Shown one piece after another: positions 6,316 to 21,064 of a stretch of 63,687 nt of DNA (position 1 is the first letter of the stretch; the number at the start of each line of letters is the position of its first letter). The notes under the pieces are model-generated. The model was not told where the DNA came from. It worked only from the letters and a program-made list of their open reading frames with translations, and did no database searches. The position numbers and the translations under genes were made by a program. The stretch is taken from contig JAQBPE010000080.1 in NCBI GenBank assembly GCA_028287685.1, positions 1-63,687 of the forward strand, in the 5' to 3' direction. Origin of the DNA: Cyanobacteria bacterium RYN_339. GTDB taxonomy: Bacteria; Cyanobacteriota; Sericytochromatia; S15B-MN24; JAQBPE01.

Positions 6316-8187
6316 CTAACTGCGCGTCAGAGCCCGTTCGCGGAGAGCCAGGTGGACCATCAGCAAGGACACGTCTGCCGGCGTGACCCCCCCGACGCGG
6401 CCAGCCTGGCCAACGGACCGCGGGCGCACCCGCGTCAGCTTGTCCTGGGCCTCGCGGCTCAGCCCCACCAGCGCCATGTAGTCCAGGTCTTCCGGGATGA
6501 CATGGTCTTCCTGCCGGAGGGTGCGCTCGATCTGCGCTTGCTGGCGCTTGATGTAGCCTTCGTACTTCGTTTCGATCGCGAGCTGCTCCGCCACCAGCGG
6601 ATCCACCTCGGCGGGATCGCGCCCGACGGCGCGCATCAGCTGGGCCATGGCCAGCTCCGGCCGGCGCAACAGCTCCTCCAGCGTCTGGCTGCGGTCAACG
6701 GCCTCGCCGGCTTCCGCCAGCAAGGCGGCAGCCTGGGCCGAGCCGGGGTTGATGCGGTGGGCCCGTAGCCAGGCCCGCTCGCGGGCGATCGCCTCGAGCT
6801 TGCGGCCGAACCGCTCGAACCGCTCGCTCGGCACGAGGCCCAGGGCAAAGCCCAGCGGCGTGAGGCGTTGATCGGCGTTGTCCTGGCGCAGGGTCAGGCG
6901 GTACTCCGAGCGCGAGGTCAGCATGCGGTAGGGATCCCGAATGTCCTTGGTGACAAGATCATCAACCAAGGTGCCGATGTAGCTTTCTTGCCGCGGGAAG
7001 ACCACCGGCGCCTGGCCCAGCGCATAGCGGGCGGCGTTGATGCCGGCAACGATGCCCTGGGCAGCGGCCTCTTCGTAGCCGGAGGTGCCGTTGATCTGTC
7101 CGGCGGTGAACAGGCCGGGCACGGCCTTGGCCATCAAGGTCGGGGTGAGTTGCGTGGCGGGCAGGCAGTCGTACTCCACGGCATAGCCGTAGCGGAGGAT
7201 CTTCGCGGCCTCCAGGCCGGGGATGGTCTTGAGGAAGGCCTCCTGGACGTCTTCCGGCATGCTGGTGGACAGGCCCTGGATGTACATCACGTCCTGGTCA
7301 AGGCCTTCCGGCTCGACGAAGATCGGGTGCGAGTCCTTGTCCTTGAACCGCACGACCTTGTCCTCGATCGACGGGCAGTAGCGCGGCCCGACGCCCTCGA
7401 TCTGCCCGCCGTAGATGGGCGAGCGGTCGAGGTTGGCCAGGATGATGGCGTGGGTCGCCGGGGTGGTGCGTGTCTGCCAGCAGCTCAGCTGGGGCAGGCG
7501 GGCGGCGGGCTCCAACAGGGAGAAGTGCGGCGCGTCCAGGTCGCCGCGTTCCTCTTCCATGCACGAGTAGTCGATCGAGGCGGCGTCGACGCGAGGCGGC
7601 GTGCCGGTCTTGAGCCGGTGCAGCTCGAAGCCCAGCGCGCGCAGGCTGTCGGAGAGCTTCTCGGCGGAGGGCTCGCCGGCGCGGCCGGCGGCGACCTGGG
7701 TCTGGCCGGTGTGGCACTTGCCCTTGAGGTAGGTCCCCGTGGTGATGACCACGGTCTTGGCTTCGTAGCGCTCGCCGGCGGCCGTGATCAGGACCAGGCC
7801 GCTCGGTCCGCGCTCCAGCACGTCGACCATGCCTTCGCGCAGCGTCAGGTTGGGTTGCTCCTCGCACACGCGTCGCATAAACGCGGCGTACTTCGCCTTG
7901 TCCGACTGCGCCCGCAGGGCTTGCACCGCAGGACCCTTGGAGCCGTTCAGCACGCGGATCTGCAAATAGGTGGCGTCGGTGGTGACGCCCATCTGGCCGC
8001 CCAGGGCGTCCACCTCGCGCACCAGGTGGCCCTTGGCCGGGCCGCCGATGGCCGGGTTGCACGGCATCGTGGCGATCTTGTCGAGCGCCAGCGTCAGCAT
8101 CAGCGTCCGCGCACCCAGGCGCGCCGCGGCAAGGCCGGCTTCCACGCCCGCATGTCCAGCGCCTATCACGATCACGTCCCAGGTCAT
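6316..8187 (-). CDS. mnmG: tRNA uridine-5-carboxymethylaminomethyl modification enzyme MnmG (GidA)
   Basis: [56 protein letters not shown]. Start may be 8187 or 8193. Confidence 0.97.
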
Positions 8188-9789: not shown

Positions 9790-10242
9790 GTGAACAGCTT
9801 CCCCCCGATCCCTCCGCTCGATGCCAAGCAGGTCAAGGCGCTGGTGCGCATGATCCGCGTGCTGCGCTACGATCACCCCGCTTGGGGCGATGACGCGGTG
9901 GCCGAGGAGTTCGAGACGGTACAGCGCTGGCTGGCCTCCCAGGAGCGGCCGGCCCCGTTCCTCGAATGGCTGGAGACGCCGCGCTGGCGGGCGGGCTTCG
10001 ACCGGGCCGCGGCCCTGGCCGGGCGGGTCACGGAGCAACGGCAACGCGAGAAGGCCTCCCGCCAACGTTGGAAGGACGTCGTGCGCGACAAGCAGCCGTC
10101 CACCGCCGCCCAGCAACGCTACGTCACGCGGCTGGCCCGCCAGGCCGGCGAGCCGCTGGAGTTGCCGCCCGCCGATATGTCCAAGCTCGCCGCCAGCCGC
10201 GCCATCCAGCGCCTCAAGGCCTCTGCCCCACCCACCTCCTGA
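9790..10242 (+). CDS. Hypothetical protein with a DUF3072-like C-terminal motif
   Basis: C-terminus STAAQQRYVTRLARQAG...MSKLAASRAIQRLK resembles the DUF3072 pattern; fits between neighbouring genes. Confidence 0.55.
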   Translation: MNSFPPIPPLDAKQVKALVRMIRVLRYDHPAWGDDAVAEEFETVQRWLASQERPAPFLEWLETPRWRAGFDRAAALAGRVTEQRQREKASRQRWKDVVRDKQPSTAAQQRYVTRLARQAGEPLELPPADMSKLAASRAIQRLKASAPPTS

Positions 10243-12714: not shown

Positions 12715-14042
12715 TCGCCTGGGCGTTGGCCGCGGCGCTGGCCACGCCGCCGAAGTTGGTGGTCCTCGAGTGGGAAGGCGGCGGCAGCCAGCTGGTGCGC
12801 CGCCTCCTGGCCGAAGGGGCCATGCCCCACCTGGCCGCGTTGGTGGCCCGCGGCGCCGTGGCCGAGGAGGCCCGGCCGCCTTTCGTGCGGGGTCGCCTGG
12901 CCGCCGGAGCCGCCTTATGGACTGGCGCCGCGCCGGACGTCAGCGGCGTAACGGGTGGGTACGTGCCGCTGGCCGGCCGCTCGATCCTGGAAGGCCACCC
13001 GGCCGACGTGCTGGCGGCGGCCTCCCTGCCCGAGGCGGCGGCCACGGCCGGCCGGCAAGTCGTGGCGGTCGACCTGCCCTGGCGCCCCGCGGGCGCCGCT
13101 GCCCTGACCATCGAGGAAGCGGTGCCGCTGGATGAGCGCTTGCCGGATGACCAGTACGGCGCGGAAATCATGACGCGGCTGGCGCGCCACCGCCATGCGG
13201 TGGTGGCGGCCATGAAGGCCCGGTCATGGGACGTTTTCACCGTGAGTCTGGCCCTGCCGGCGCGCGCGGAGGCCCGCTGGTGGGGGATCGTCGTGCCCGG
13301 CACGCCTGCGGCGGATGGGGCCGCGGCCGTGCGCGTCTGGCCGCGCTTGCGTCAGGTTTGCCAGGGCGTGGATTTGACCATCGGGGCGCTGGCGGACGCG
13401 TTGCCGCCTGGGGCCGTGTTTGCCGTGGTGGGCGAGCGCGGGCTGACGCCGACGCGCTGGACCTTCCACCCCAACGTGGCCTTGCGCCGGGCCGGGCTCC
13501 TGGCGTTGGACCGCACGGGACAGGTCGACCTGGCCCACACGGAGGTCATGTACGGTCCGACCAACGGGGGGTTCCTGCTGATCAACACGCTGGATCGCCC
13601 CGGCGGCATCGTGGACCCGGTGCGCGGTCCCGCCGTGGTCAATGCGGCACGGCGGGCGTTGCTGGAGGTCAGCGTCAAGACGCTTGAAGGCGTCCGCCCC
13701 GTGGTGCGGGCGGCCTTGCCGCCCGGTCCGGGCACGGGCACTGCCGGCGTCTTGTACCTGGGGCTCCAGCCCGGTTACGACATGGATGCCCAGCCCACCG
13801 GCGAGGCGTTGTTCAGCCCACGTCCGCCGGCTACCAGCGCCGGCGATGGCAGCCCGGAGGAGCCCGGCTTCCTGGCGGTCATAGGCCCCGGCCTGGCACC
13901 GCGGGGGCGCATGGCCGCCATCTCTACCCTGGACGTTGCGCCAACGCTCGCCCGCTTGATCGGCCTGCCGCCCCTCAAGGATGCGCGTGGCCGGGTGCTG
14001 ACGGAGCTGCTTAGATCCGCAGGCGCAGGCCAACCCAACTGA
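12711..14042 (+). CDS. Alkaline-phosphatase/NPP-superfamily protein with a degenerate active site
   Basis: TTG start overlaps the HAD stop. AEGAMPHLAALVARG, LWTG..P..SGVTG and DVAPTLARLIGL match the family scaffold, but the DG, nucleophile and SDHG positions are substituted. Confidence 0.65.
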   Translation: MIAWALAAALATPPKLVVLEWEGGGSQLVRRLLAEGAMPHLAALVARGAVAEEARPPFVRGRLAAGAALWTGAAPDVSGVTGGYVPLAGRSILEGHPADVLAAASLPEAAATAGRQVVAVDLPWRPAGAAALTIEEAVPLDERLPDDQYGAEIMTRLARHRHAVVAAMKARSWDVFTVSLALPARAEARWWGIVVPGTPAADGAAAVRVWPRLRQVCQGVDLTIGALADALPPGAVFAVVGERGLTPTRWTFHPNVALRRAGLLALDRTGQVDLAHTEVMYGPTNGGFLLINTLDRPGGIVDPVRGPAVVNAARRALLEVSVKTLEGVRPVVRAALPPGPGTGTAGVLYLGLQPGYDMDAQPTGEALFSPRPPATSAGDGSPEEPGFLAVIGPGLAPRGRMAAISTLDVAPTLARLIGLPPLKDARGRVLTELLRSAGAGQPN

Positions 14043-14689: not shown

Positions 14690-15232
14690 ATGCCATTTCG
14701 CTACCAGATGCAAAAGGTCCTTGACCTCATGCTCAACCGCGAGAAAGCGATCGACGCGGAGGTCATGGCCGCCACCGCCGCGCGCAACATCGAGCAAGCC
14801 AAGCTCGACGAGATCGATATGCGCAAGAACGCCGCCCAGAAGGGCCTGAGCGCCCAGATGGGTGCCGGCGCCACGGCCGACGTCGCCGCCAGCAACGACT
14901 ACATCCAGGCGCTCAACCTCCGGGCCGAAGCCCAGATGAAGTATGTGAAGGCCGCCCAGACGGTCGTCAACGCCGCCTCGGAGAAGCAAACCGCCGCGCG
15001 CCGCGAGCGCAAGAAGATCGAGCAACACAAAGAGATGAAGCTCAAGATCTGGCAGGCGGAAGAGAAGAAGAAGGACGCCAAGAAGATGGACGAAATGGCC
15101 GGCACCATCTTCATGAAGAAGCGCGCCCTCAACGAAGAAAACGCCCGCGACGAAGCGGAGCGCGACGTGAAGATGGAACAGCTGCGGCTGCTGCGGGAAC
15201 TGCGCGAGAAGCGGGAAAAGAAGGGCTACTAA
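14690..15232 (+). CDS. fliJ: Flagellar export protein FliJ
   Basis: MPFRYQMQKVLDL N-terminus, coiled coil, ARRERKKIE...KKMDEMA; directly upstream of a fliK-like gene. Confidence 0.75.
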   Translation: MPFRYQMQKVLDLMLNREKAIDAEVMAATAARNIEQAKLDEIDMRKNAAQKGLSAQMGAGATADVAASNDYIQALNLRAEAQMKYVKAAQTVVNAASEKQTAARRERKKIEQHKEMKLKIWQAEEKKKDAKKMDEMAGTIFMKKRALNEENARDEAERDVKMEQLRLLRELREKREKKGY

Positions 15233-15234
15233 GC

Positions 15235-16116
15235 ATGAACATCCAACTTGCCGTCACCCCGCCCCCCGCCGCCCCGGAGCCGCCGAAGCCCAACACCGGG
15301 CGCGAAGACGCCATCGCGGCCAACAAGAAGCAGGCTGACTTCCAGAAGCTGATCCACGACGAAGTGGAGAAGAAGAAGGCGCTGGAAGGCAAGAACCTGC
15401 CCACGCCGCTGCTGCCCTGGCTGGCGACGCAAGCCCCCGTGGCCAGCGACAATACCGAAGAGGAACTGGCCGGCATCAGCGCCGCGAACGCCCTGTCCGC
15501 CGGTGAGCGTGCCGCCGCCCGTGCCTTCGCCGCTTCCTTGGCGGGCCAGCGGCCCGTCGACGGCGCCAACGCCCGCGGTCGCAAGCCGGAGGAGCCGGTC
15601 GATTTCGAGGCCGTGAAGCCGACCGCACCCAAGGAAGCCGACGTCACCCCGGTCCACGTGGTTGTGGAAGCCGGGCTTCCCCCGGTGCAGCCGACCGAGT
15701 CCATCAAGCCGGGCCAGGACGTGCCGCTGGCACAGCTGCCCCAGGCCGTGGCCGGCACCGCGCGCCAACTGGTCAAGGACAACCAGGCCATCACCCAGCT
15801 TGATTTTCAGATCACCCCGCCGCACGTCGGCCCGGTGAACTTGGAGGTTAGCCTGCAAGACCGTGTCGTGAGCATCCAGATTGTGGTGCCCAACATCCAG
15901 GCCAAGCACGCGCTGGAAGGACAGATGGGCAACATCGCCTCGATCCTGCAGGCCCAGAACCTCACGGCCGGTCCCGTACGCATCGTCACGGCCGCCGCCG
16001 GGAAATCGGGCGCAGGCGCCATGGGCGCGCAGGGCGAACAGGCCGGCTTTGGCCTCCTAAACGGCGGCCGCAAGCGGGCTGCCGGGCCAGATGACATGAC
16101 GGCTGGTTCGGTTTAG
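15235..16116 (+). CDS. fliK: Flagellar hook-length control protein FliK
   Basis: Pro/Ala-rich N-terminus plus FQITPPHVGPVNLEV...LEGQMGNIASILQAQNL (Flg_hook C domain). Confidence 0.75.
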   Translation: MNIQLAVTPPPAAPEPPKPNTGREDAIAANKKQADFQKLIHDEVEKKKALEGKNLPTPLLPWLATQAPVASDNTEEELAGISAANALSAGERAAARAFAASLAGQRPVDGANARGRKPEEPVDFEAVKPTAPKEADVTPVHVVVEAGLPPVQPTESIKPGQDVPLAQLPQAVAGTARQLVKDNQAITQLDFQITPPHVGPVNLEVSLQDRVVSIQIVVPNIQAKHALEGQMGNIASILQAQNLTAGPVRIVTAAAGKSGAGAMGAQGEQAGFGLLNGGRKRAAGPDDMTAGSV

Positions 16117-16157
16117 CATAGGGGCGTCACCCCAAGCTTCCTTAAGGAGGAGGTCTC

Positions 16158-16646
16158 ATGCTAAACGTTGGCGACAAGTTCCCAAGCGTCTCGCTTGAAG
16201 GCACCCAAGGCGGCGAAGCCAAGCGCTATAACCTGGGCGATCCGTCCGGCAAAATCCGCGTGTTGGTCTTCTACCCCTTCGCCTTCACCCCCGTTTGAAC
16301 GCGGGAACTGCCGGACGCGAATTCCAAGTTATCGGAATTCAGCGCCCGCAACGCCGAGGTCTTCGGCGTTTCCATGGACAGCGTTCACACGAACCGGGCC
16401 TATGCCACTGAAATTGGCGGCCTCGGTTACCCCCTGCTCTCGGATTGGAACCCCCACGGCCACCTGGTGGATCAGCTCGGCATCCGCGTCGCGGAGAAGG
16501 GCTGTCCCAGCCGGACCACCGTGATCGTGGACAAGGATGGCGTCATTCGCGACATCCAGACGAACGCGCTCGGCGACGACCGCGACTTCGACGTCACGTT
16601 GGCGAAGGTCGCCGAGATCAACCAGGGGGAGGCGGCGGGAAGCTAG
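16158..16646 (+). CDS. Peroxiredoxin (AhpC/TSA, AhpE-like) with in-frame TGA at the peroxidatic Cys; probable selenoprotein
   Basis: AAGGAGGAGG RBS and ATG 16158. Reads MLNVGDKFP...LVFYPFAFTPV[TGA 16296-16298]TRELP...VFGVSMDS...YPLLSDW...RTTVIVDKDGVIR, in frame with ORF 16374-16646. Confidence 0.88.
16311..16349 (+). promoter_or_regulatory. Candidate bacterial SECIS hairpin
   Basis: GAATTCC(16319-25)-aagttatc-GGAATTC(16334-40) stem, extendable by CGC/GCG across a bulged A; loop lies about 27-30 nt after the UGA. Confidence 0.65.
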
Positions 16647-18565
16647 CTTAGCTCCAAGTAGCCCCGGCGACGCACGATCCCTCGTGCGGTTTCGCCGGGG
16701 CTCGCGCATTTCGCGCACTCCGCCACCGGCGCCGCCGTGTGGCCGCAGCCTTGGCAGATGGATAGCGGGAAGTCCAGGGCGTAAGCCCGCACGCCCGCGG
16801 CCGCGGCCGCCTGCACCCGGGCAATCGCCTGCTCGGCGGGCAACGTGGTGGGCTGCACGTCCCGGAAGACGCAGCCACCCGCGAACAGCGGCGCGTAGGC
16901 GCCCTCGATCGTCAGGCGCTCGTGCCAGGCCAGCCCGGCATCCGCCGGCAGCGACACGCCCGCACTGTAACCGGGCATCTCCGTCACGCCCTTGATCAGG
17001 CCGAACTCGCGTCGGTCCAGGCGCGCGAAGCGCTCGCTCACGCCGTCAGCATCGGCCGACTGCAGCACCAACCGCACGCCCAGCTGATCGCCCAGTTCCG
17101 CGCAGAGCGCGGCGGCCCGGCGGATGATGGTAAGGCCCTCGGCCTGGACGGACGGCGAGCCACCATGGTGTTCGCCCGCCAACACGACCAGGGCCTGCGC
17201 CAGGCCTACCAGCCCGATGGCCAGCGTTCCCTCGCGCAGCACATCGCGGATCGGGGCTTCCGGCGTCAGGGCGGCAGAGCCGTTCCAGAGGCGCTGGCCC
17301 ATCAGGAAGGGGAAGTCGGCCGCGGGCCGGGCGCCCAGGGCATCCAACCGGTGGACGAGGTGTTGGGCGGCCACCCGGATGGCGGCGTCCAGCGCCTGGT
17401 GGAAGTCGGTGGCTTCGCGGCGCGCCGTGAGGGCCAATCGGGGCAAGTTCACGCTCAGGCGGGCCACCTGTCCGACGCCGGTGCCGGCACCCACGCGGGC
17501 TTCATGCCCCGCATAAGCCACGCCTTCGCCGTCATGCACGAAGGTCACCAGCCGGCGGTCGCAGGCCAGCTCGACCGCCTGGCGCGTCAGGTCGAAGTTG
17601 GGGTCGCCCGGGTTCAGGTTCACGCCGGCACGAAGCAGGAAGACGACGTGGGGCCGCAAGGCCGCCTCGCCGCGACCCAGGCCCCGGCCGGCAGCCGTCA
17701 GCAGGGCCCGCGTGACCTCACGCCCCAGCGGGCTAACGTCGAGGCCGACCTGCAAGCTCGCGTAGGGCAAGTGGTCGCCGCCCTGAACGGACATTGTATT
17801 GAGGTTGTACACCAGGGATTCCATGGCCTGGTCCAGCTCGGCGGGCGTGGTCTGGGCCGGCAGCACCGTGGCCAGGTCGCTGTCGAAGGTGGCCAAGGTC
17901 TGGCCGCCATGGCAATCGGCCTGGGCGGCCTGGAGGATCACGGAGGTCAAGGCGGCGGCGGAGGCGGCGCGCTTCGGCGCCCGCATGAAGCCGTGGCCGC
18001 TGGCGAAACCATCTTGCAAGAGCCGCAAGTAAGGCACGACGAAGCCGTGGGGCGCCTGAGCGTAGTCCGCGAGTCCGTGCAGATGGATGGCGCCAGCCTC
18101 ATGGGCCTCCGCCATGGCCTCGGGCAGCACGCGGTTCATGTAGAACTCGCGGCTAGCGGCCACCCCGATGGCGGCGCGGCGCCAGCGGCTGCCGGCGGCG
18201 CGCGCCGGGGCCTCGTCGTTGGAGAGGATCTCCGCCACGGTGTCCATCAACTCGCTCTTGCCTTCGCGGATGCGGCTGCGGCGGGCACGGTAAAGGATGA
18301 AGGCCTTGGCCGTGCGGGCGTGCCCGTGCTCGATCAGGACCTTCTCGATCGTGTCCTGGATGGTCTCCACGGTGGGGATCTTGCCGGAGGCGTCGGTGCC
18401 TACCCGGCGCAGCACGTCCTGGGCCAACTCGTCGGCGAGGTTGTAGTCGGAACCCTGGACGGCTTGGGCGGACCGCATGATGGCGGCCACGATCTTGCTG
18501 CGGTCGAAGGCGACGATCCGTCCGTCCCGTTTTTGGATTTCCGAAATTTCCCGCGCCATGACCAT
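16643..18565 (-). CDS. ATP-cone plus class III ribonucleotide reductase (NrdD)-like protein lacking catalytic cysteines
   Basis: ATP cone (KRDGRIVAFDRSKI); NrdD scaffold motifs NLNTM, PGDPNFDL, NLPRLA, FPFLMGQ, HHG; CxxC...CxxC; terminal RGYL. TCC and YMGCR equivalents are replaced. Confidence 0.85.
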   Translation of the reverse strand: MVMAREISEIQKRDGRIVAFDRSKIVAAIMRSAQAVQGSDYNLADELAQDVLRRVGTDASGKIPTVETIQDTIEKVLIEHGHARTAKAFILYRARRSRIREGKSELMDTVAEILSNDEAPARAAGSRWRRAAIGVAASREFYMNRVLPEAMAEAHEAGAIHLHGLADYAQAPHGFVVPYLRLLQDGFASGHGFMRAPKRAASAAALTSVILQAAQADCHGGQTLATFDSDLATVLPAQTTPAELDQAMESLVYNLNTMSVQGGDHLPYASLQVGLDVSPLGREVTRALLTAAGRGLGRGEAALRPHVVFLLRAGVNLNPGDPNFDLTRQAVELACDRRLVTFVHDGEGVAYAGHEARVGAGTGVGQVARLSVNLPRLALTARREATDFHQALDAAIRVAAQHLVHRLDALGARPAADFPFLMGQRLWNGSAALTPEAPIRDVLREGTLAIGLVGLAQALVVLAGEHHGGSPSVQAEGLTIIRRAAALCAELGDQLGVRLVLQSADADGVSERFARLDRREFGLIKGVTEMPGYSAGVSLPADAGLAWHERLTIEGAYAPLFAGGCVFRDVQPTTLPAEQAIARVQAAAAAGVRAYALDFPLSICQGCGHTAAPVAECAKCASPGETARGIVRRRGYLELS

Positions 18566-18787
18566 GAGTGACATAACCTCTCTATGATGACCTGTAAGCC
18601 AATGCACCACGCGCGTCATGAGCGTGTTCGGCTGCTGAAAACCCGCGCCGCGCCCGTGATTTAAGTCATGACAAGCTGGGGTACATGTGGGAAAATGATG
18701 CCAATCATTCTACACAAAGGCGCCTGATTTCCGCAGTTTCCGCGATCTGGAAATCGACCTGGCCTGTGCAACGGAGGACGACAACGA

Positions 18788-21064
18788 ATGCGTAACCGCC
18801 TGGCTTACCGCCAATTGCTGGTTTCTTGCTTCGGATTGGGAATGGCCATGGGCGTTGTCCCTGGCTCCGCTTCGGCGGCACAGCCCAGTAAGGTCGGCTC
18901 TGTGAGCTACGATCAGGCCCATCAGGCCCTGGCGATCCCCGTCACGGGGCAAGAGCCGAAGGTGCAAGTGCGCCGGCTGGCCCCGCACCAGTACGTGGCG
19001 GATCTGGGCAACTGTGTGTTGGCCCGGTCGGAGGTTCAGGGGCAGCGGATGCATGGCCCGCTGCTGGCCGGCTGGTCGCTGGATGAGACACCCACCGGTC
19101 AGACCGTCCGGCTGCGCCTGACGCTGAACCAGGACGTCGATCCCCAAATCCGGTTCGTCCGGCAGGGCGGCGTGATGCTGATGACCTTCGGCGGCCGCCC
19201 GGTCGCCACGGTGGCCGCAGCGACGACGGCGGCCAAGCGCCCTGTTGCCACGGTGGCCGCCGCTGTGAAGCGCACAACCCCCGTGCTTCCCAAGGTAACG
19301 ACCAAGTCCCAGCTGGCTTTCCCTACCGCCGCGCCGGTTCCGGTGCACCTGGCGGAAGGCCATCTTCGCTCCGACGTGCCGCGCTATGTCGGCCTGCAGC
19401 TTAACACCGCGACGCACGCCGCCCCCAAACCGGCCCGTACCCTCGTGGCGACGCACCACGCCGCGGCCCATCAGGCCGTGAAGCCCGCCACCAAGCCCCC
19501 CTTCCCGTTGATGTTGGCCGGTCGCAACCTGCCGTTCGCCGTTCCGGCCCAGGCCGCGGCGCCGGTGCTGCCGGCGCCGCGCATCCCGGCCGGTCTCGCG
19601 ATGCCCGGCGTCGTGGCACCCCTGGCCTCCGCCCCGCAGTTCGCCTCGCTGGGATCCGCCCGCTACGACGCCAAACGCGGCGTGCTGGTCATCCCGGTCA
19701 GCGGTGAGTTGGATCCCAAGCGGCTCGAAATCGTGCAGCTGAACAAGCGTTGGGCCTACCTGGACGTCCCGGCGAGCATCCCCAACTTCTCCGGCGTGAA
19801 GTTCGAGGAACGGGCGGACAAGACTTTCCAGCGCTGGGTGATGGCCAAGCGCCCCAATCGCAACACCACCCGCCTGTCGTTCGCCCTGGGCGCCGCGGCG
19901 AACTTCGACGTCAAGCTCGAAGGCAAGGAGTTGCTGGTGACCGTGCGGCCGCAGGGTGACCTGATTGCCAAGCAGCCGAAGGCTTCGGCCCCGGTGGTCG
20001 CGGCCAAGCCCGCAGCGCTGGTCGCCGTTGCGCCGGTCGTTACCGCGCCGATCGTTTCCGTGCCCGTGGCCGCTCCGGTGGCGCCTATCGCCGCCAAGCC
20101 GGTGGTCGCGCCTGTCGCGGCCAAGCCGGTGGTCGCGCCGGTTGCGGCCAAGCCGGTCGTTGCCGTCAAGCCGGCCCCGATCGCCCAGCTGCCCGTCGCC
20201 AAGCCCGCTGCCAAGCCGACCGTGGTGCTGGCCAAGGCCCCGGTGCCGGTGAAGGCGCAAGCCCCGGCCAAGCCCACCACCATTCTGGACCGCCCGTTCT
20301 TCGACCAGGAGCGCCACGGCCTCGTGGTCCCCTACACCGGCGAGATCCCGCTTTACCGTTGGAGCAACCAGGAAGACGCTTCCGTCGCCCTGGAAGTGAA
20401 GGGCGCCGCCTCCGTGGCCGGCGAGCTGGAGCAGTCGTTCAAGCAACATCCCGTGATGAAGACCTGGCGCGTCGGCCCCGACGCGGCCGCCGGCACCGTA
20501 CAGTTGGCGATGACCTTCCGCCGGCCCTCCGAAGTGGTGGTCGCGGTCGACACCGCCCGCCGGCAGCTCCTGTTGATCCCCCAGCCCCGCCTCACCGGCG
20601 AGCAGGTGCCGACCGCCGCCGCCCCGACCACCACCTTGTCGGCGGTGAAGCTGCCGGCCGACGGCCAGCGCCTCTACATCTCCTTCACCGGCAAGGTGCC
20701 CGCCTACACCATCGAGACGGTCAGCTCCCAGTTCGCCTACATCAACTTCGAGGCCGCCAAGCTGGAGACCAAGTCGGTTCAGTTCTTCGCCCCGGACTTC
20801 CACCCCAGCCTGAACTACTGGCTGCTGTCGGAGCGCCCGCTGCAAGGCGGCGTGCGCCTGGCCCTCGCCCTGACCCAGGCCGGTGGCCCCTCCGTCTTCG
20901 AAGACCGCTCCAACCAGCGCCTGGTGATCGAGCTCGGCGGCGACGACACCCAAGTGGGCGCCCGCAGCAAGCCCTCGTTCCCGGCGCCTTGGCCCGGTGA
21001 GCACGCCCCGACGGGCTACCAGCCGGCGGACCCGCTGGTGAAAGTCAGCCGGAAGGCGAGCTAA
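18788..21064 (+). CDS. Secreted protein with four AMIN-like repeats and Pro/Ala linkers
   Basis: Signal peptide; repeated YDxxxxxLxIPxxG...YxD...W...VRLxLxL units. Confidence 0.65.
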   Translation: MRNRLAYRQLLVSCFGLGMAMGVVPGSASAAQPSKVGSVSYDQAHQALAIPVTGQEPKVQVRRLAPHQYVADLGNCVLARSEVQGQRMHGPLLAGWSLDETPTGQTVRLRLTLNQDVDPQIRFVRQGGVMLMTFGGRPVATVAAATTAAKRPVATVAAAVKRTTPVLPKVTTKSQLAFPTAAPVPVHLAEGHLRSDVPRYVGLQLNTATHAAPKPARTLVATHHAAAHQAVKPATKPPFPLMLAGRNLPFAVPAQAAAPVLPAPRIPAGLAMPGVVAPLASAPQFASLGSARYDAKRGVLVIPVSGELDPKRLEIVQLNKRWAYLDVPASIPNFSGVKFEERADKTFQRWVMAKRPNRNTTRLSFALGAAANFDVKLEGKELLVTVRPQGDLIAKQPKASAPVVAAKPAALVAVAPVVTAPIVSVPVAAPVAPIAAKPVVAPVAAKPVVAPVAAKPVVAVKPAPIAQLPVAKPAAKPTVVLAKAPVPVKAQAPAKPTTILDRPFFDQERHGLVVPYTGEIPLYRWSNQEDASVALEVKGAASVAGELEQSFKQHPVMKTWRVGPDAAAGTVQLAMTFRRPSEVVVAVDTARRQLLLIPQPRLTGEQVPTAAAPTTTLSAVKLPADGQRLYISFTGKVPAYTIETVSSQFAYINFEAAKLETKSVQFFAPDFHPSLNYWLLSERPLQGGVRLALALTQAGGPSVFEDRSNQRLVIELGGDDTQVGARSKPSFPAPWPGEHAPTGYQPADPLVKVSRKAS
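20090..20164 (+). repeat. 27-nt coding tandem repeat (AAKPVVAPV, about 3 copies)
   Basis: gccgccaagccggtggtcgcgcctgtc / gcggccaagccggtggtcgcgccggtt / gcggccaagccggtcgttgcc. Confidence 0.85.

What the first reader, a model, noticed from the sequence alone, without database searches (positions are those of the whole stretch)
16158..16646. Hidden selenoprotein: peroxiredoxin with UGA at the peroxidatic Cys and a SECIS-like hairpin
Seen: strong RBS, ATG 16158 and an open frame whose only internal stop (TGA 16296-98, codon 47) falls exactly at the C of the Prx PxxxTxxC motif (PFAFTPV*TREL). The frame continues to a complete Prx including the conserved Arg. A GAATTCC/GGAATTC stem-loop follows about 20 nt later and uses AT-rich codons (AAT, TTA) unusual for this GC-rich DNA. 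Known: bacterial Sec insertion uses UGA plus an immediately downstream hairpin, and Sec-Prx exist in other phyla. Inference: this organism decodes Sec, which would be notable if it is a Cyanobacteriota relative, since oxygenic cyanobacteria are not generally known as Sec users. The ORF track misses the N-terminal part.
Basis: partly seen in the sequence, partly recalled or inferred. Interest (0 to 1): 0.85.

Follow-up and report, generated by a model that had tools for sequence, protein, structure and literature searches.

The report
Selenocysteine peroxiredoxin in non-photosynthetic cyanobacterial relative
This is a real gene for a peroxide-destroying enzyme that uses selenocysteine instead of cysteine at its active site, an already known kind of protein, found here in a soil bacterium from a non-photosynthetic sister group of the cyanobacteria, a phylum that reviews describe as lacking selenocysteine.

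Summary

**The gene.** Window 16158-16646 (+) encodes a 162-aa AhpC/TSA-family peroxiredoxin. Its only internal stop, TGA 16296-98 (codon 47), sits at the peroxidatic position of P40-x3-T44-x2-U47. R119 is conserved.

**Why it is a selenoprotein and not a pseudogene.**
- Three orthologs at 59-66% identity in related genomes carry TGA in the same column.
- Eleven more distant homologs (Eremiobacterota, Chloroflexota and metagenome contigs) also carry TGA there, while 147 homologs carry Cys.
- A 42-nt hairpin (16309-16350) follows the TGA. It has two compensatory pairs among the four orthologs.
- This kind of structure is specific to the TGA forms (mean z -2.8 against -0.2 for Cys forms).
- The genome has tRNA-Sec, selA-selB and selD, plus three further candidate selenoprotein genes.

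**The organism.** It is a non-photosynthetic member of Cyanobacteriota; one same-family record is titled Sericytochromatia. selA is found in 23 of 47 genomes of its class and in 0 of 354 other sampled genomes of the phylum.

**Verdict.** Sec-peroxiredoxins are a long-known, common selenoprotein family, so the protein is a new member of a known kind. The modest novelty is taxonomic: my searches found no dedicated description of Sec decoding in this class.

The parts
16091..16119 (+). Promoter-like site (ATGACA, 17-nt spacer, TAGCAT) upstream of the gene
   Evidence: Consensus scan: 1 site found against 0.1 expected from shuffles. This is a consensus match only; function is not shown.
16144..16153 (+). 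Shine-Dalgarno-like AAGGAGGAGG, 4 nt before the ATG
   Evidence: Read directly from the sequence. GGAGG-like motifs also precede the ATG in the three orthologs.
16158..16646 (+). Selenoprotein gene: a 162-aa short peroxiredoxin (AhpE-like / Prx1-like), stop TAG 16644-46 included
   Evidence: Translation with TGA=U. Pfam AhpC-TSA 104.4 bits over residues 4-132. Best solved relatives are M. tuberculosis AhpE and 2-Cys Prx/AhpC. The AF2 model (pLDDT 78.9, pTM 0.82) matches Prx structures at TM 0.80-0.86.
16296..16298 (+). UGA codon 47, read as selenocysteine at the peroxidatic position of P40xxxT44xxU47
   Evidence: TGA in the same column in 4 of 4 orthologs. It aligns with the peroxidatic Cys of AhpE and with Cys in 147 homologs.
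16309..16350 (+). SECIS-like stem-loop: lower stem, upper stem 16319-25/16334-40, apical loop AAGUUAUC 16326-33
   Evidence: MFE -18.8 kcal/mol, z -4.11, 0 of 200 shuffles as stable. 12 consensus pairs, 95.8% of cells paired against 21-50% when slid, 2 compensatory pairs. 27 nt between the UGA and the loop. Built with rare codons AAT and TTA.
16503..16505 (+). Cys116 (TGT), three residues before the conserved active-site Arg119; candidate resolving Cys
   Evidence: Invariant in the 4 orthologs and nearly invariant in 16 database fragments. Also present in 76 of 147 Cys-form homologs. The role is inferred, not tested.
16512..16514 (+). Arg119, the conserved peroxiredoxin active-site arginine
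   Evidence: Invariant across alignments A3 and A4. It aligns with the Arg of AhpE in the phmmer alignment.

Best explanation
The gene encodes a genuine selenocysteine-containing peroxiredoxin.

How it is made: during translation, UGA-47 is decoded as Sec by Sec-tRNA(Sec), delivered by SelB. SelB is recruited by the stem-loop that begins 11 nt after the UGA (16309-16350). SelA and SelD supply the Sec-tRNA.

How it works: the product is a short (162 aa) AhpE-like / Prx1-like peroxiredoxin. The selenolate of U47, activated by T44 and R119, attacks hydroperoxides to give a selenenic acid. This is then resolved, either by Cys116 (forming a selenenylsulfide) or directly by an external thiol reductant, and finally reduced by a thioredoxin-like system.

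Where it sits: the host is a non-photosynthetic soil member of Cyanobacteriota (class Sericytochromatia by one relative's record title). Its Sec machinery serves a small set of redox selenoproteins and not formate dehydrogenase.

Shown here: the gene structure, the conserved UGA, the conserved hairpin, the Sec machinery and the Prx fold. Inferred: actual Sec insertion, SelB binding, peroxidase activity, the role of Cys116 and the reductant.
For: 1. Conserved UGA. Of 47 class genomes, 4 hold an ortholog (E <= 1e-35), and each has exactly one in-frame TGA in the same column. They span two families of the class.

2. Purifying selection past the TGA. Across 106 downstream codons, third-position differences (46-53 per pair) exceed second-position ones (21-26), and 27-33 codons per pair differ only synonymously.

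3. Sec/Cys pairs. Among 162 homologs, 15 have TGA and 147 have Cys at this column. All the stops found there are TGA.

4. Wider database. In a 5.8-billion-protein collection, the 17 other close relatives (61-84% identity; two are the G001 and G003 genes already counted in point 1) are all 90-112 aa fragments. I aligned 16 of them: 14 begin 4-8 residues after U47 and two begin further in. No close full-length Cys form was found; the first full-length hits are at 44-45% identity.

5. SECIS.
- The hairpin is stable (z -4.11) and conserved, with CG<->UA and CG<->GC compensatory pairs.
- It is made with rare codons.
- It meets the published bSECIS limits on loop length, stem length, 16-37 nt spacing and MFE (criteria read in PMC13188914).
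- The 48 nt after the Cp codon are structured in Sec forms (mean z -2.82, n=15) but not in Cys forms (mean z -0.23, n=147; Mann-Whitney p=2e-8, though relatives are not independent).

6. Machinery. tRNA-Sec, selA, selB and selD are all above curated cut-offs in G000. The three ortholog-bearing relatives also have selA and tRNA-Sec.

7. Same organism. The contigs carrying the Prx and the machinery have the bin's composition (tetranucleotide r 0.971-0.997). Synteny (FliK-like gene, then prx, then convergent nrdD) is shared with G001 and G003.

8. Other candidate selenoproteins in the genome, each with a downstream hairpin:
- a SelL-related UxxC protein (NF040769, 122.3 bits, cut-off 120)
- a thioredoxin-like UxxC protein
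- an AhpD-family CxxU protein (TIGR01926, 133.5 bits)

9. TGA is an ordinary stop here. It ends 786 of 2355 long ORFs, so the genome is not globally recoded.
Against: - There is no direct evidence of selenium in the protein or of expression.
- The apical loop AAGUUAUC has its G at the third position, not among the first two as the bSECIS model asks. The criterion is met only if A31-U37 closes the loop with a bulged C.
- With only four orthologs, covariation is weak statistically: 32 of 500 shuffles reach the observed score.
- The genome is a 506-contig MAG with 6.69% estimated contamination.
- The active-site loop (residues 44-46) of the model has pLDDT below 50.
- Subfamily assignment is ambiguous: AhpE 84.9 bits, 2-Cys Prx BAS1 86.2, AhpC 84.8.
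- The class name rests on one NCBI record title. The other same-family record is titled Oscillatoriaceae.
Confidence: 0.9

Rival explanations
1. Pseudogene: a peroxiredoxin inactivated by a Cys-to-stop (TGC/TGT to TGA) nonsense mutation, with a hairpin present by chance.
For: A single base change turns TGC or TGT into TGA. The genome has four other Prx-family matches without stops that could cover the function.
Against: The same TGA is present in 4 of 4 orthologs at 59-66% identity across two families. The downstream 115 codons stay open and show a coding-type substitution pattern. TGA recurs at this column in 11 more distant homologs from other phyla and metagenome contigs. Hairpin structure is specific to the TGA forms. 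The Sec machinery is complete.
Confidence: 0.03
2. UGA-47 is read through as another residue (Trp, Cys, Gly or Arg, by near-cognate or recoded decoding), not as selenocysteine.
For: One gene caller in the public collection translated a Chloroflexi-type homolog with W at this position (P0019). Leaky UGA read-through exists in bacteria (general knowledge).
Against: The column is the catalytic Cys in 147 homologs, and Trp or Gly there would kill the enzyme. TGA ends 786 of 2355 long ORFs, so it is a normal stop in this genome. A dedicated tRNA-Sec, SelA, SelB and SelD are present. A conserved SelB-type hairpin lies at the canonical distance.
Confidence: 0.03
3. The contig is a contaminant in the bin: the Sec-Prx belongs to another soil organism (for example Eremiobacterota or Chloroflexota, which have Sec homologs), so it says nothing about this lineage.
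For: Contamination is estimated at 6.69% in a 506-contig MAG. The nearest non-class homologs are Sec forms from other soil phyla.
Against: C334 has median tetranucleotide correlation with the bin (0.989). The orthologs and their FliK-like/NrdD neighbours are shared with two independently assembled same-family genomes. The four class sequences form their own clade (SH-aLRT 99), far (38-44% identity) from the other phyla's forms. selA is present in 23 of 47 class genomes.
Confidence: 0.02
4. Two separate small genes: a 46-aa peptide and a 90-aa N-terminally truncated Prx fragment starting at ATG 16374, as ORF callers annotate it.
For: Standard ORF calling gives exactly these pieces, and public gene calls list the C-terminal fragments as proteins.
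Against: One Pfam domain (residues 4-132) spans the TGA. The C-terminal fragment would lack the whole P-x3-T-x2-C/U active site. The called fragments start at varying alternative start codons just after the TGA. No RBS was seen before 16374 in the sequence.
Confidence: 0.02

Closest known systems
Sec-containing peroxiredoxins (Prx family, TxxU motif; prototype PrxU of Eubacterium acidaminophilum, Sohling et al. 2001)
   Same: AhpC/TSA fold, Sec at the peroxidatic position of PxxxTxxU, and a SECIS hairpin directly downstream. The family is listed among the commonest bacterial selenoprotein families: 78 organisms and 91 proteins in PMC5029168 (passages); a table and text passage in PMC13188914; 43 genes in the Sargasso Sea set in PMC1088965.
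   Different: It is not the PrxU equivalog (NF040737 53.7 bits against a cut-off of 270). It is shorter (162 aa), closest to AhpE / short Prx1-like enzymes, and comes from a different lineage. The Sohling paper itself was not read; I saw it only as a reference.
Mycobacterium tuberculosis AhpE (Rv2238c; PDB 1XXU/1XVW), the 1-Cys AhpE subfamily
   Same: Same length class. It aligns from Met1 (MLNVG in both) to residue 144, and U47 aligns with the peroxidatic Cys (E 5.8e-17). It lacks the C-terminal extension that carries the resolving Cys of typical 2-Cys Prx.
   Different: Sec instead of Cys. It has an extra conserved Cys116 where AhpE has Ile (alignment). By profile it is no closer to AhpE (84.9 bits) than to plant 2-Cys Prx BAS1 (86.2) or AhpC (84.8). 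That AhpE is a 1-Cys Prx reduced by mycoredoxin/mycothiol is recalled, not from a call.
Sec forms of the same short Prx in Eremiobacterota (Vulcanimicrobiota), Chloroflexota and two metagenome contigs, and Cys forms in Streptomycetaceae
   Same: The same domain over its full length, the same YPFAFTP(V/I)-U/C motif, and a hairpin at a similar offset after the UGA in the Sec forms.
   Different: Only 38-45% identical. The hairpin sequences are unrelated between phyla. The Sericytochromatia clade sits on a long branch of its own (quick tree only).
Escherichia coli fdhF-type bacterial SECIS / the bSECIS consensus model (Zhang and Gladyshev, as summarised in PMC13188914)
   Same: A stem-loop in the coding region directly after the UGA. 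Loop of 8 nt (limit 3-9), upper stem of 7 bp (limit 4-16), 27 nt from UGA to loop (limit 16-37), MFE -18.8 (limit <= -7.5).
   Different: The G is at loop position 3, not 1-2, unless an A-U pair closes the loop. No sequence resemblance to E. coli elements was tested. No Rfam family matches.

Membership tests
Peroxiredoxin (AhpC/TSA, PF00578) | Significant match to the family profile across the domain | tested here: met
   104.4 bits against a cut-off of 26, residues 4-132 on profile positions 1-123 of 124.
Peroxiredoxin (AhpC/TSA, PF00578) | PxxxTxxC(U) active-site motif and the conserved Arg | tested here: met
   P40, T44, U47 and R119 are invariant in 4 of 4 orthologs. U47 aligns with the Cp of AhpE. 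R119 is invariant in 20 of 20 sequences of A4.
Peroxiredoxin (AhpC/TSA, PF00578) | Thioredoxin-type Prx fold | tested here: met
   The AF2 model (pLDDT 78.9, pTM 0.82) matches Prx1, Prx3 and Prx4 structures at TM 0.80-0.86, E about 1e-13. The active-site loop 44-46 is low-confidence.
Peroxiredoxin (AhpC/TSA, PF00578) | Peroxidase activity with a thiol reductant | not testable with these tools
   Needs an enzyme assay.
Bacterial selenoprotein | In-frame UGA aligned with Cys in homologs (a Sec/Cys pair) | tested here: met
   15 TGA and 147 Cys at one column among 162 homologs.
Bacterial selenoprotein | UGA conserved in orthologs from other organisms | tested here: met
   4 of 4 orthologs in 47 class genomes. 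The 17 close database relatives are all fragments; of the 16 aligned, 14 start 4-8 residues after the site.
Bacterial selenoprotein | bSECIS: 3-9 nt loop, 4-16 bp upper stem, 16-37 nt from the UGA, MFE <= -7.5 | tested here: met
   8-nt loop, 7-bp upper stem, 27 nt spacing, -18.8 kcal/mol.
Bacterial selenoprotein | [quoted passage not shown] | tested here: inconclusive
   In the loop AAGUUAUC the G is third. It becomes second (AGUUA) if A-U closes the loop with a bulged C. The SelL-related gene of the same genome has the loop AGUU.
Bacterial selenoprotein | Host has tRNA-Sec, SelA, SelB and SelD | tested here: met
   Scores of 70.7, 557.5, 366 and 399.6 bits, all above curated cut-offs.
Bacterial selenoprotein | Selenium found in the protein | not testable with these tools
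   Needs 75Se labelling or mass spectrometry.
PrxU equivalog (NCBIfam NF040737) | Score above the equivalog cut-off | tested here: not met
   53.7 bits against a cut-off of 270. It works like PrxU but is not a member of that equivalog.
Prx-SUH selenoprotein (NCBIfam NF045827) | Score above the cut-off; CxxU motif | tested here: not met
   28.9 bits against 298. The motif here is TxxU.
AhpE subfamily of peroxiredoxins | Closer to AhpE than to other Prx subfamilies | tested here: inconclusive
   A single sequence gives AhpE as top hit (65.3 bits) with BAS1 at 65.0. The profile gives BAS1 86.2, AhpE 84.9 and AhpC 84.8.
AhpE subfamily of peroxiredoxins | Short form without the C-terminal resolving-Cys extension | tested here: met
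   162 aa, aligned end to end with the 153-aa AhpE. There is no Cys after residue 116.

The most novel reading that the evidence does not exclude
Selenocysteine decoding is an old, vertically inherited trait of the basal non-photosynthetic class of Cyanobacteriota. It is present in 5 of 7 sampled families and was lost, or never gained, on the lines leading to oxygenic Cyanobacteriia and to the large non-photosynthetic family f9. In this lineage the machinery is kept not for formate dehydrogenase but for a purely redox-defence selenoproteome: Sec-Prx, SelL-related, Trx-like and AhpD-like proteins. The short Sec-Prx, with a Sec47-Cys116 selenenylsulfide cycle, would then be a distinct subfamily shared with other soil phyla (Eremiobacterota, Chloroflexota) by ancient horizontal transfer.
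Probability: 0.25. Interest if true: 0.6.

Novelty: new member of a known kind. Interest (0 to 1): 0.42.

Why it matters
- **Annotation.** Gene callers cut this gene and at least 16 relatives in public collections into fragments. The antioxidant repertoire of these organisms is therefore under-annotated.
- **Taxonomy of the Sec trait.** Comparative studies and a 2022 review state that Cyanobacteria appeared to lack Sec decoding (PMC1794560; PMC9312934). Here the complete machinery is present, and selA occurs in 23 of 47 genomes of one non-photosynthetic class but in 0 of 354 other sampled genomes of the phylum, including all 175 with photosystem I. This gives a clean contrast for asking whether Sec use was lost around the origin of oxygenic photosynthesis or gained separately by the soil-dwelling sister class.
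- **Selenoproteome type.** A selenoproteome without FdhN/O-type formate dehydrogenase, made of thiol-oxidoreductase-type proteins, in a 68.5% GC soil bacterium adds a case to the aerobic/redox type of selenoproteome.

The protein family itself is ordinary for the field.

Tried and rejected
- **Metagenome scan for more close orthologs.** It returned 80 loci, none above 45% identity (78 Cys, 2 TGA). The SECIS covariation test therefore stayed at four sequences.
- **FdhA (TIGR01553) as the reason for the Sec machinery.** Not found at E <= 1e-20 in G000, G001 or G003. Only G015 has a 148-bit match with one TGA. Other Fdh types (for example TIGR01591) were not searched.
- **Cys116 as a feature unique to this clade.** Rejected: 76 of 147 Cys-form homologs also have Cys there.
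- **Tree.** The careful search did not finish in 300 s, so only the quick tree (SH-aLRT, midpoint root, long-branch warnings) was used. I draw no donor or direction of transfer from it.
- **Genome-wide TGA screen.**
  - It is crude: 193 candidates were cut to 133, mostly noise or adjacent same-frame genes.
  - It dropped the Prx itself, because the SECIS uses atypical codons.
  - It is therefore not a complete selenoproteome. I picked the three extra candidates by eye and then tested them.
- **Terminator scan.** None found.
- **Rfam.** No family at gathering score in the window. One chance-level match (snaR-A, E 0.81) in 16100-16700.
- **Sequencing runs.** No RNA holder listed. The RNA run X3 laid nothing. 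X2 held only fragments that do not cover the TGA.
- **Structure.** The model's coordinates are not returned, so the Sec47-Cys116 distance could not be measured.
- **Not used.** Complex prediction, the search of protein representatives, the protein-atlas search, the viral collections and the phage/plasmid/E. coli collections had no bearing on the question.
- **Literature.**
  - 0 papers hold both 'Sericytochromatia' and 'selenocysteine'.
  - 6 papers hold 'Melainabacteria' and 'selenocysteine'. I opened one, PMC9529120, which mentions a single Sec-annotated protein in a 'Candidatus melainabacteria' record. The other five I judged from title and abstract only.
  - 10 papers hold 'AhpE', 'selenocysteine' and 'peroxiredoxin'. 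I opened one and it did not describe a Sec-AhpE.
  - Papers were read as search listings and matched passages only. Supplementary tables were closed and may list Sec traits for such MAGs.
Full report
**1. The observation**

- A strong Shine-Dalgarno-like AAGGAGGAGG (16144-53) precedes ATG 16158.
- The frame has one internal stop, TGA 16296-98 (codon 47), in PFAFTPV*TRELP. It runs on to TAG 16644-46.
- Plain ORF calling splits the gene into a 46-aa and a 90-aa piece.
- Read with TGA=U, the 162-aa product matches Pfam AhpC-TSA over residues 4-132 (104.4 bits, cut-off 26). One domain therefore spans the stop.
- The best solved relative by single-sequence search is M. tuberculosis AhpE. It aligns from Met1, and its peroxidatic Cys lies opposite U47.
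- The motif is P40-x3-T44-x2-U47, and R119 is the conserved arginine.
- An AlphaFold2 model from the four-sequence alignment (pLDDT 78.9, pTM 0.82; residues 44-46 below 50) matches Prx1-, Prx3- and Prx4-type structures at TM 0.80-0.86.

**2. Is the TGA a conserved feature or a lesion?**

*Orthologs in the class.* Searching the 47 genomes of the window's class with stops read through, 4 of 47 hold an ortholog at E <= 1e-35. These are G000, G001 and G003 in family f1, and G015 in family f3, at 59-66% identity. Each has exactly one TGA, in the same column of FPFAFTPV-U-TRELPD.

*Selection past the TGA.* Downstream of the TGA, the 106 aligned codons show a coding pattern of change in all six pairs. 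Differences at position 3 number 46-53, against 21-26 at position 2. Between 27 and 33 codons per pair differ only synonymously.

*Distant homologs.*
- Among 80 named genome loci, 11 carry a stop at this column, all TGA. Two are the G001 and G003 orthologs. The other nine are from Eremiobacterota/Vulcanimicrobiota, Anaerolineales and Chloroflexota. The remaining 69 carry Cys, mostly Streptomycetaceae.
- Among 80 metagenome loci, 2 carry TGA and 78 carry Cys.

*The large protein collection.*
- Besides the window's own 90-aa fragment, the 17 close relatives (61-84% identity) are all 90-112 aa fragments. Two of them are the G001 and G003 genes.
- I aligned 16 of them. Fourteen start 4-8 residues after U47, one starts at residue 58 and one at residue 74.
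- The first full-length hits are at 44-45% identity. One of these has W at the site, which is a TGA translated as Trp by a gene caller.
- No close Cys-form ortholog was found anywhere I searched.

**3. The hairpin**

*Stability and conservation.*
- The 42 nt at 16309-16350 fold into a 15-bp interrupted stem-loop. MFE is -18.8 kcal/mol, z -4.11, and 0 of 200 shuffles fold as well.
- In the four orthologs, RNAalifold finds 12 consensus pairs. Two are kept through changes on both sides: CG<->UA and CG<->GC.
- On the named structure, 95.8% of cells pair, against 21-50% when the partner is slid by 1-3 columns. With four sequences the shuffle control is only moderate: 32 of 500 shuffles reach the observed score.

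*Rare codons.* The stem is built with AAT (5.0% of Asn codons) and TTA (0.5% of Leu codons). This suggests that RNA structure outweighs codon preference here.

*Fit to the published bSECIS model* (PMC13188914, Fig. 2 legend, passages).
- Loop 8 nt, within the 3-9 limit.
- Upper stem 7 bp, within 4-16.
- Spacing 27 nt, within 16-37.
- MFE within the limit.
- The G is at loop position 3, not 1-2, unless an A-U pair closes the loop. I score this criterion as inconclusive.

*Control against Cys forms.* This control does not depend on the small clade. The 48 nt after the Cp codon have a mean z of -2.82 in the 15 TGA forms. In the 147 Cys forms the mean is -0.23, even though the Cys forms have higher GC (Mann-Whitney p=2e-8). 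Relatives are not independent, so the p value overstates the case.

**4. Can the organism decode Sec?**

*The machinery.*
- tRNA-Sec on C153: Rfam 70.7 bits (gathering score 47), and ARAGORN calls it tRNA-SeC with anticodon TCA.
- selA and selB adjacent on C200: 557.5 and 366 bits.
- selD on C288: 399.6 bits.
- All are above curated cut-offs.

*Do the contigs belong together?* The bin is a 506-contig MAG, 95.4% complete with 6.7% contamination, so I checked composition. The four contigs correlate with the bin's tetranucleotide profile at 0.971-0.997. The median for contigs of 5 kb or more is 0.989.

*The relatives.* The three ortholog-bearing relatives also have selA and a tRNA-Sec above the cut-off. 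The local gene order (FliJ, a FliK-like gene, prx, convergent nrdD) is shared by G000, G001 and G003. G015 has the gene beside an encapsulin/EncFtn pair.

*TGA as a stop.* TGA ends 786 of 2355 long ORFs, so the code is not globally changed.

*Other selenoprotein candidates.* A crude genome-wide screen for coding signal on both sides of a TGA gave three more candidates:
- a SelL-related redox protein, FLRHFG-U-MFC (NF040769, 122.3 bits, cut-off 120)
- a membrane-anchored thioredoxin-like protein, STR-U-PAC
- an AhpD-family peroxidase-related enzyme, NRCFY-U-VAKH (TIGR01926, 133.5 bits)

Each has a hairpin 18-36 nt after its UGA. The SelL-related loop AGUU recurs inside the Prx loop AAGUUAUC. 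An FdhN/O-type formate dehydrogenase (TIGR01553) was not found in G000, G001 or G003.

**5. Which organism?**

- Two genomes that the collection places in the same family as G000 carry the NCBI titles 'Candidatus Sericytochromatia bacterium isolate LC083' and 'Oscillatoriaceae cyanobacterium isolate SMAG_U16484'.
- G000 has no PsaA/PsaB and no type-II reaction-centre family.
- In an even sample of 401 genomes of the phylum, 175 have PsaA/PsaB. None of the 47 class genomes does, nor any of the 170 genomes of the large family f9.
- The phylum is therefore Cyanobacteriota and the class is non-photosynthetic. The class name Sericytochromatia rests on one record title.
- selA is found in 23 of these 401 genomes, and all 23 are in the class, counting G000. 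Without G000 the tallies are f1 6/7, f4 7/8, f3 4/10, f7 4/6, f5 1/1, f2 0/1 and f6 0/13. It was found in 0 of the other 354 genomes.
- The probable source run is a soil metagenome.

**6. Mechanism**

*Shown:* gene, UGA, hairpin, machinery and fold.

*Inferred from established knowledge of bacterial Sec insertion and Prx chemistry:*
- SelB with Sec-tRNA(Sec) binds the hairpin and decodes UGA-47.
- The U47 selenolate, positioned by T44 and R119, reduces hydroperoxides to give a selenenic acid.
- Resolution could use Cys116, which is invariant in the clade and also common in Cys-form homologs (76 of 147). Alternatively it could use an external thiol, as in 1-Cys enzymes. I could not measure the Sec47-Cys116 distance.
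- The reductant is unknown. The neighbouring genes give no clue.

**7. Comparison with what is known**

- Sec-peroxiredoxins have been known since PrxU of Eubacterium acidaminophilum, which I saw only as a cited reference.
- They rank among the commonest bacterial selenoprotein families: 78 organisms and 91 proteins in PMC5029168, and 43 genes in the Sargasso Sea set.
- The present protein is not the PrxU equivalog (53.7 bits against 270) nor Prx-SUH (28.9 against 298).
- By profile it lies equally near AhpE (84.9 bits), plant 2-Cys Prx (86.2) and AhpC (84.8). In length and termini it resembles AhpE.
- In a quick tree of 162 homologs, the four class sequences form one clade (SH-aLRT 99) on a long branch. 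The 15 Sec forms need only 1-2 state changes. I draw no direction of transfer from it.

**8. Novelty**

- The protein is a new member of a known kind.
- The taxonomic point is newer. Zhang et al. 2006 did not detect the Sec trait in Cyanobacteria (PMC1794560), and a 2022 review repeats this (PMC9312934).
- No paper in the library holds both 'Sericytochromatia' and 'selenocysteine'.
- The only hint I found is a passing mention of one Sec-annotated protein in a 'Candidatus melainabacteria' record (PMC9529120).

**9. Verdict**

- Confidence that this is a real selenoprotein gene is about 0.9.
- Interest is moderate at 0.42. The selenoprotein family is ordinary, but Sec decoding in Cyanobacteriota looks to be undescribed, or nearly so, and it is sharply confined to the non-photosynthetic class.

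Noticed in passing
G000:C439, TGA at 12948 (+); locus L202:417-971: Candidate selenoprotein: a 184-aa SelL-related redox protein with FLRHFG-U-MFC (NF040769 122.3 bits, cut-off 120; Pfam AhpC-TSA_2). It has a hairpin with loop AGUU 25 nt after the UGA.
   Followed up: partly
G000:C123, TGA at 6639 (-); locus L203:274-741 (-): Candidate selenoprotein: a thioredoxin-like protein of about 156 aa with an N-terminal hydrophobic segment and the motif STR-U-PAC (Pfam Thioredoxin_2 and Thioredoxin). The gene ends at a second TGA that acts as the true stop.
   Followed up: partly
G000:C61, TGA at 9798 (-); locus L204:301-969 (-): Candidate selenoprotein: a 223-aa AhpD-family 'peroxidase-related enzyme' with NRCFY-U-VAKH (TIGR01926 133.5 bits). 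It resembles the CFYUT AhpD-related (seleno)protein family only weakly (56 bits against a cut-off of 175).
   Followed up: partly
window 16643-16646: The convergent anaerobic ribonucleotide reductase gene nrdD (16643-18619, minus strand; Pfam NRDD 285.7 bits plus an ATP-cone) ends with a TAG that overlaps the prx stop TAG in the palindrome CTAG. No terminator was found between the two genes. An inverted repeat (16662-16700) lies inside the 3' end of nrdD.
   Followed up: partly
window 14690-16116: Flagellar genes (FliJ at 14690-15229, a FliK-like hook-length protein at 15235-16116) lie directly upstream of the prx gene. The FliK-like gene, prx, nrdD order is conserved in G001 and G003.
   Followed up: partly
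G000, whole genome: Stop codon use in 2355 long ORFs is TAG 940, TGA 786, TAA 629. A TGA share of only a third looks low for a 68.5% GC genome (by my recollection of typical high-GC genomes). ORFs were defined stop to stop and filtered by GC3.
   Followed up: no
L121 = G015:C27:46099-49860: G015 has a formate-dehydrogenase-alpha-like match (TIGR01553, 148 bits, below the cut-off) with one in-frame TGA. G000, G001 and G003 had no match at E <= 1e-20.
   Followed up: no
G016:C28:1686-2081 and G002:C104:9223-9531: Two other peroxiredoxin-family matches in class relatives (35% and 40% identity to the query) each contain one in-frame TGA. They may be further Sec-Prx-type genes of a different subfamily.
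   Followed up: no
protein P0019: A public gene call of a Chloroflexi-type homolog has Trp at the peroxidatic position (FTPVWTAQMP). This is most simply a Sec-UGA translated under a TGA=Trp code by the caller.
   Followed up: no
window 18713-21004 (-): A 764-aa ORF next to nrdD has no Pfam family at E <= 0.001.
   Followed up: no
L020 = G015:C26:21585-25061: In G015 the Sec-Prx gene lies between NfeD/SPFH (Band 7) genes and a convergent encapsulin (Linocin_M18) plus EncFtn pair. This is an oxidative-stress / iron-storage neighbourhood, different from that in family f1.
   Followed up: partly
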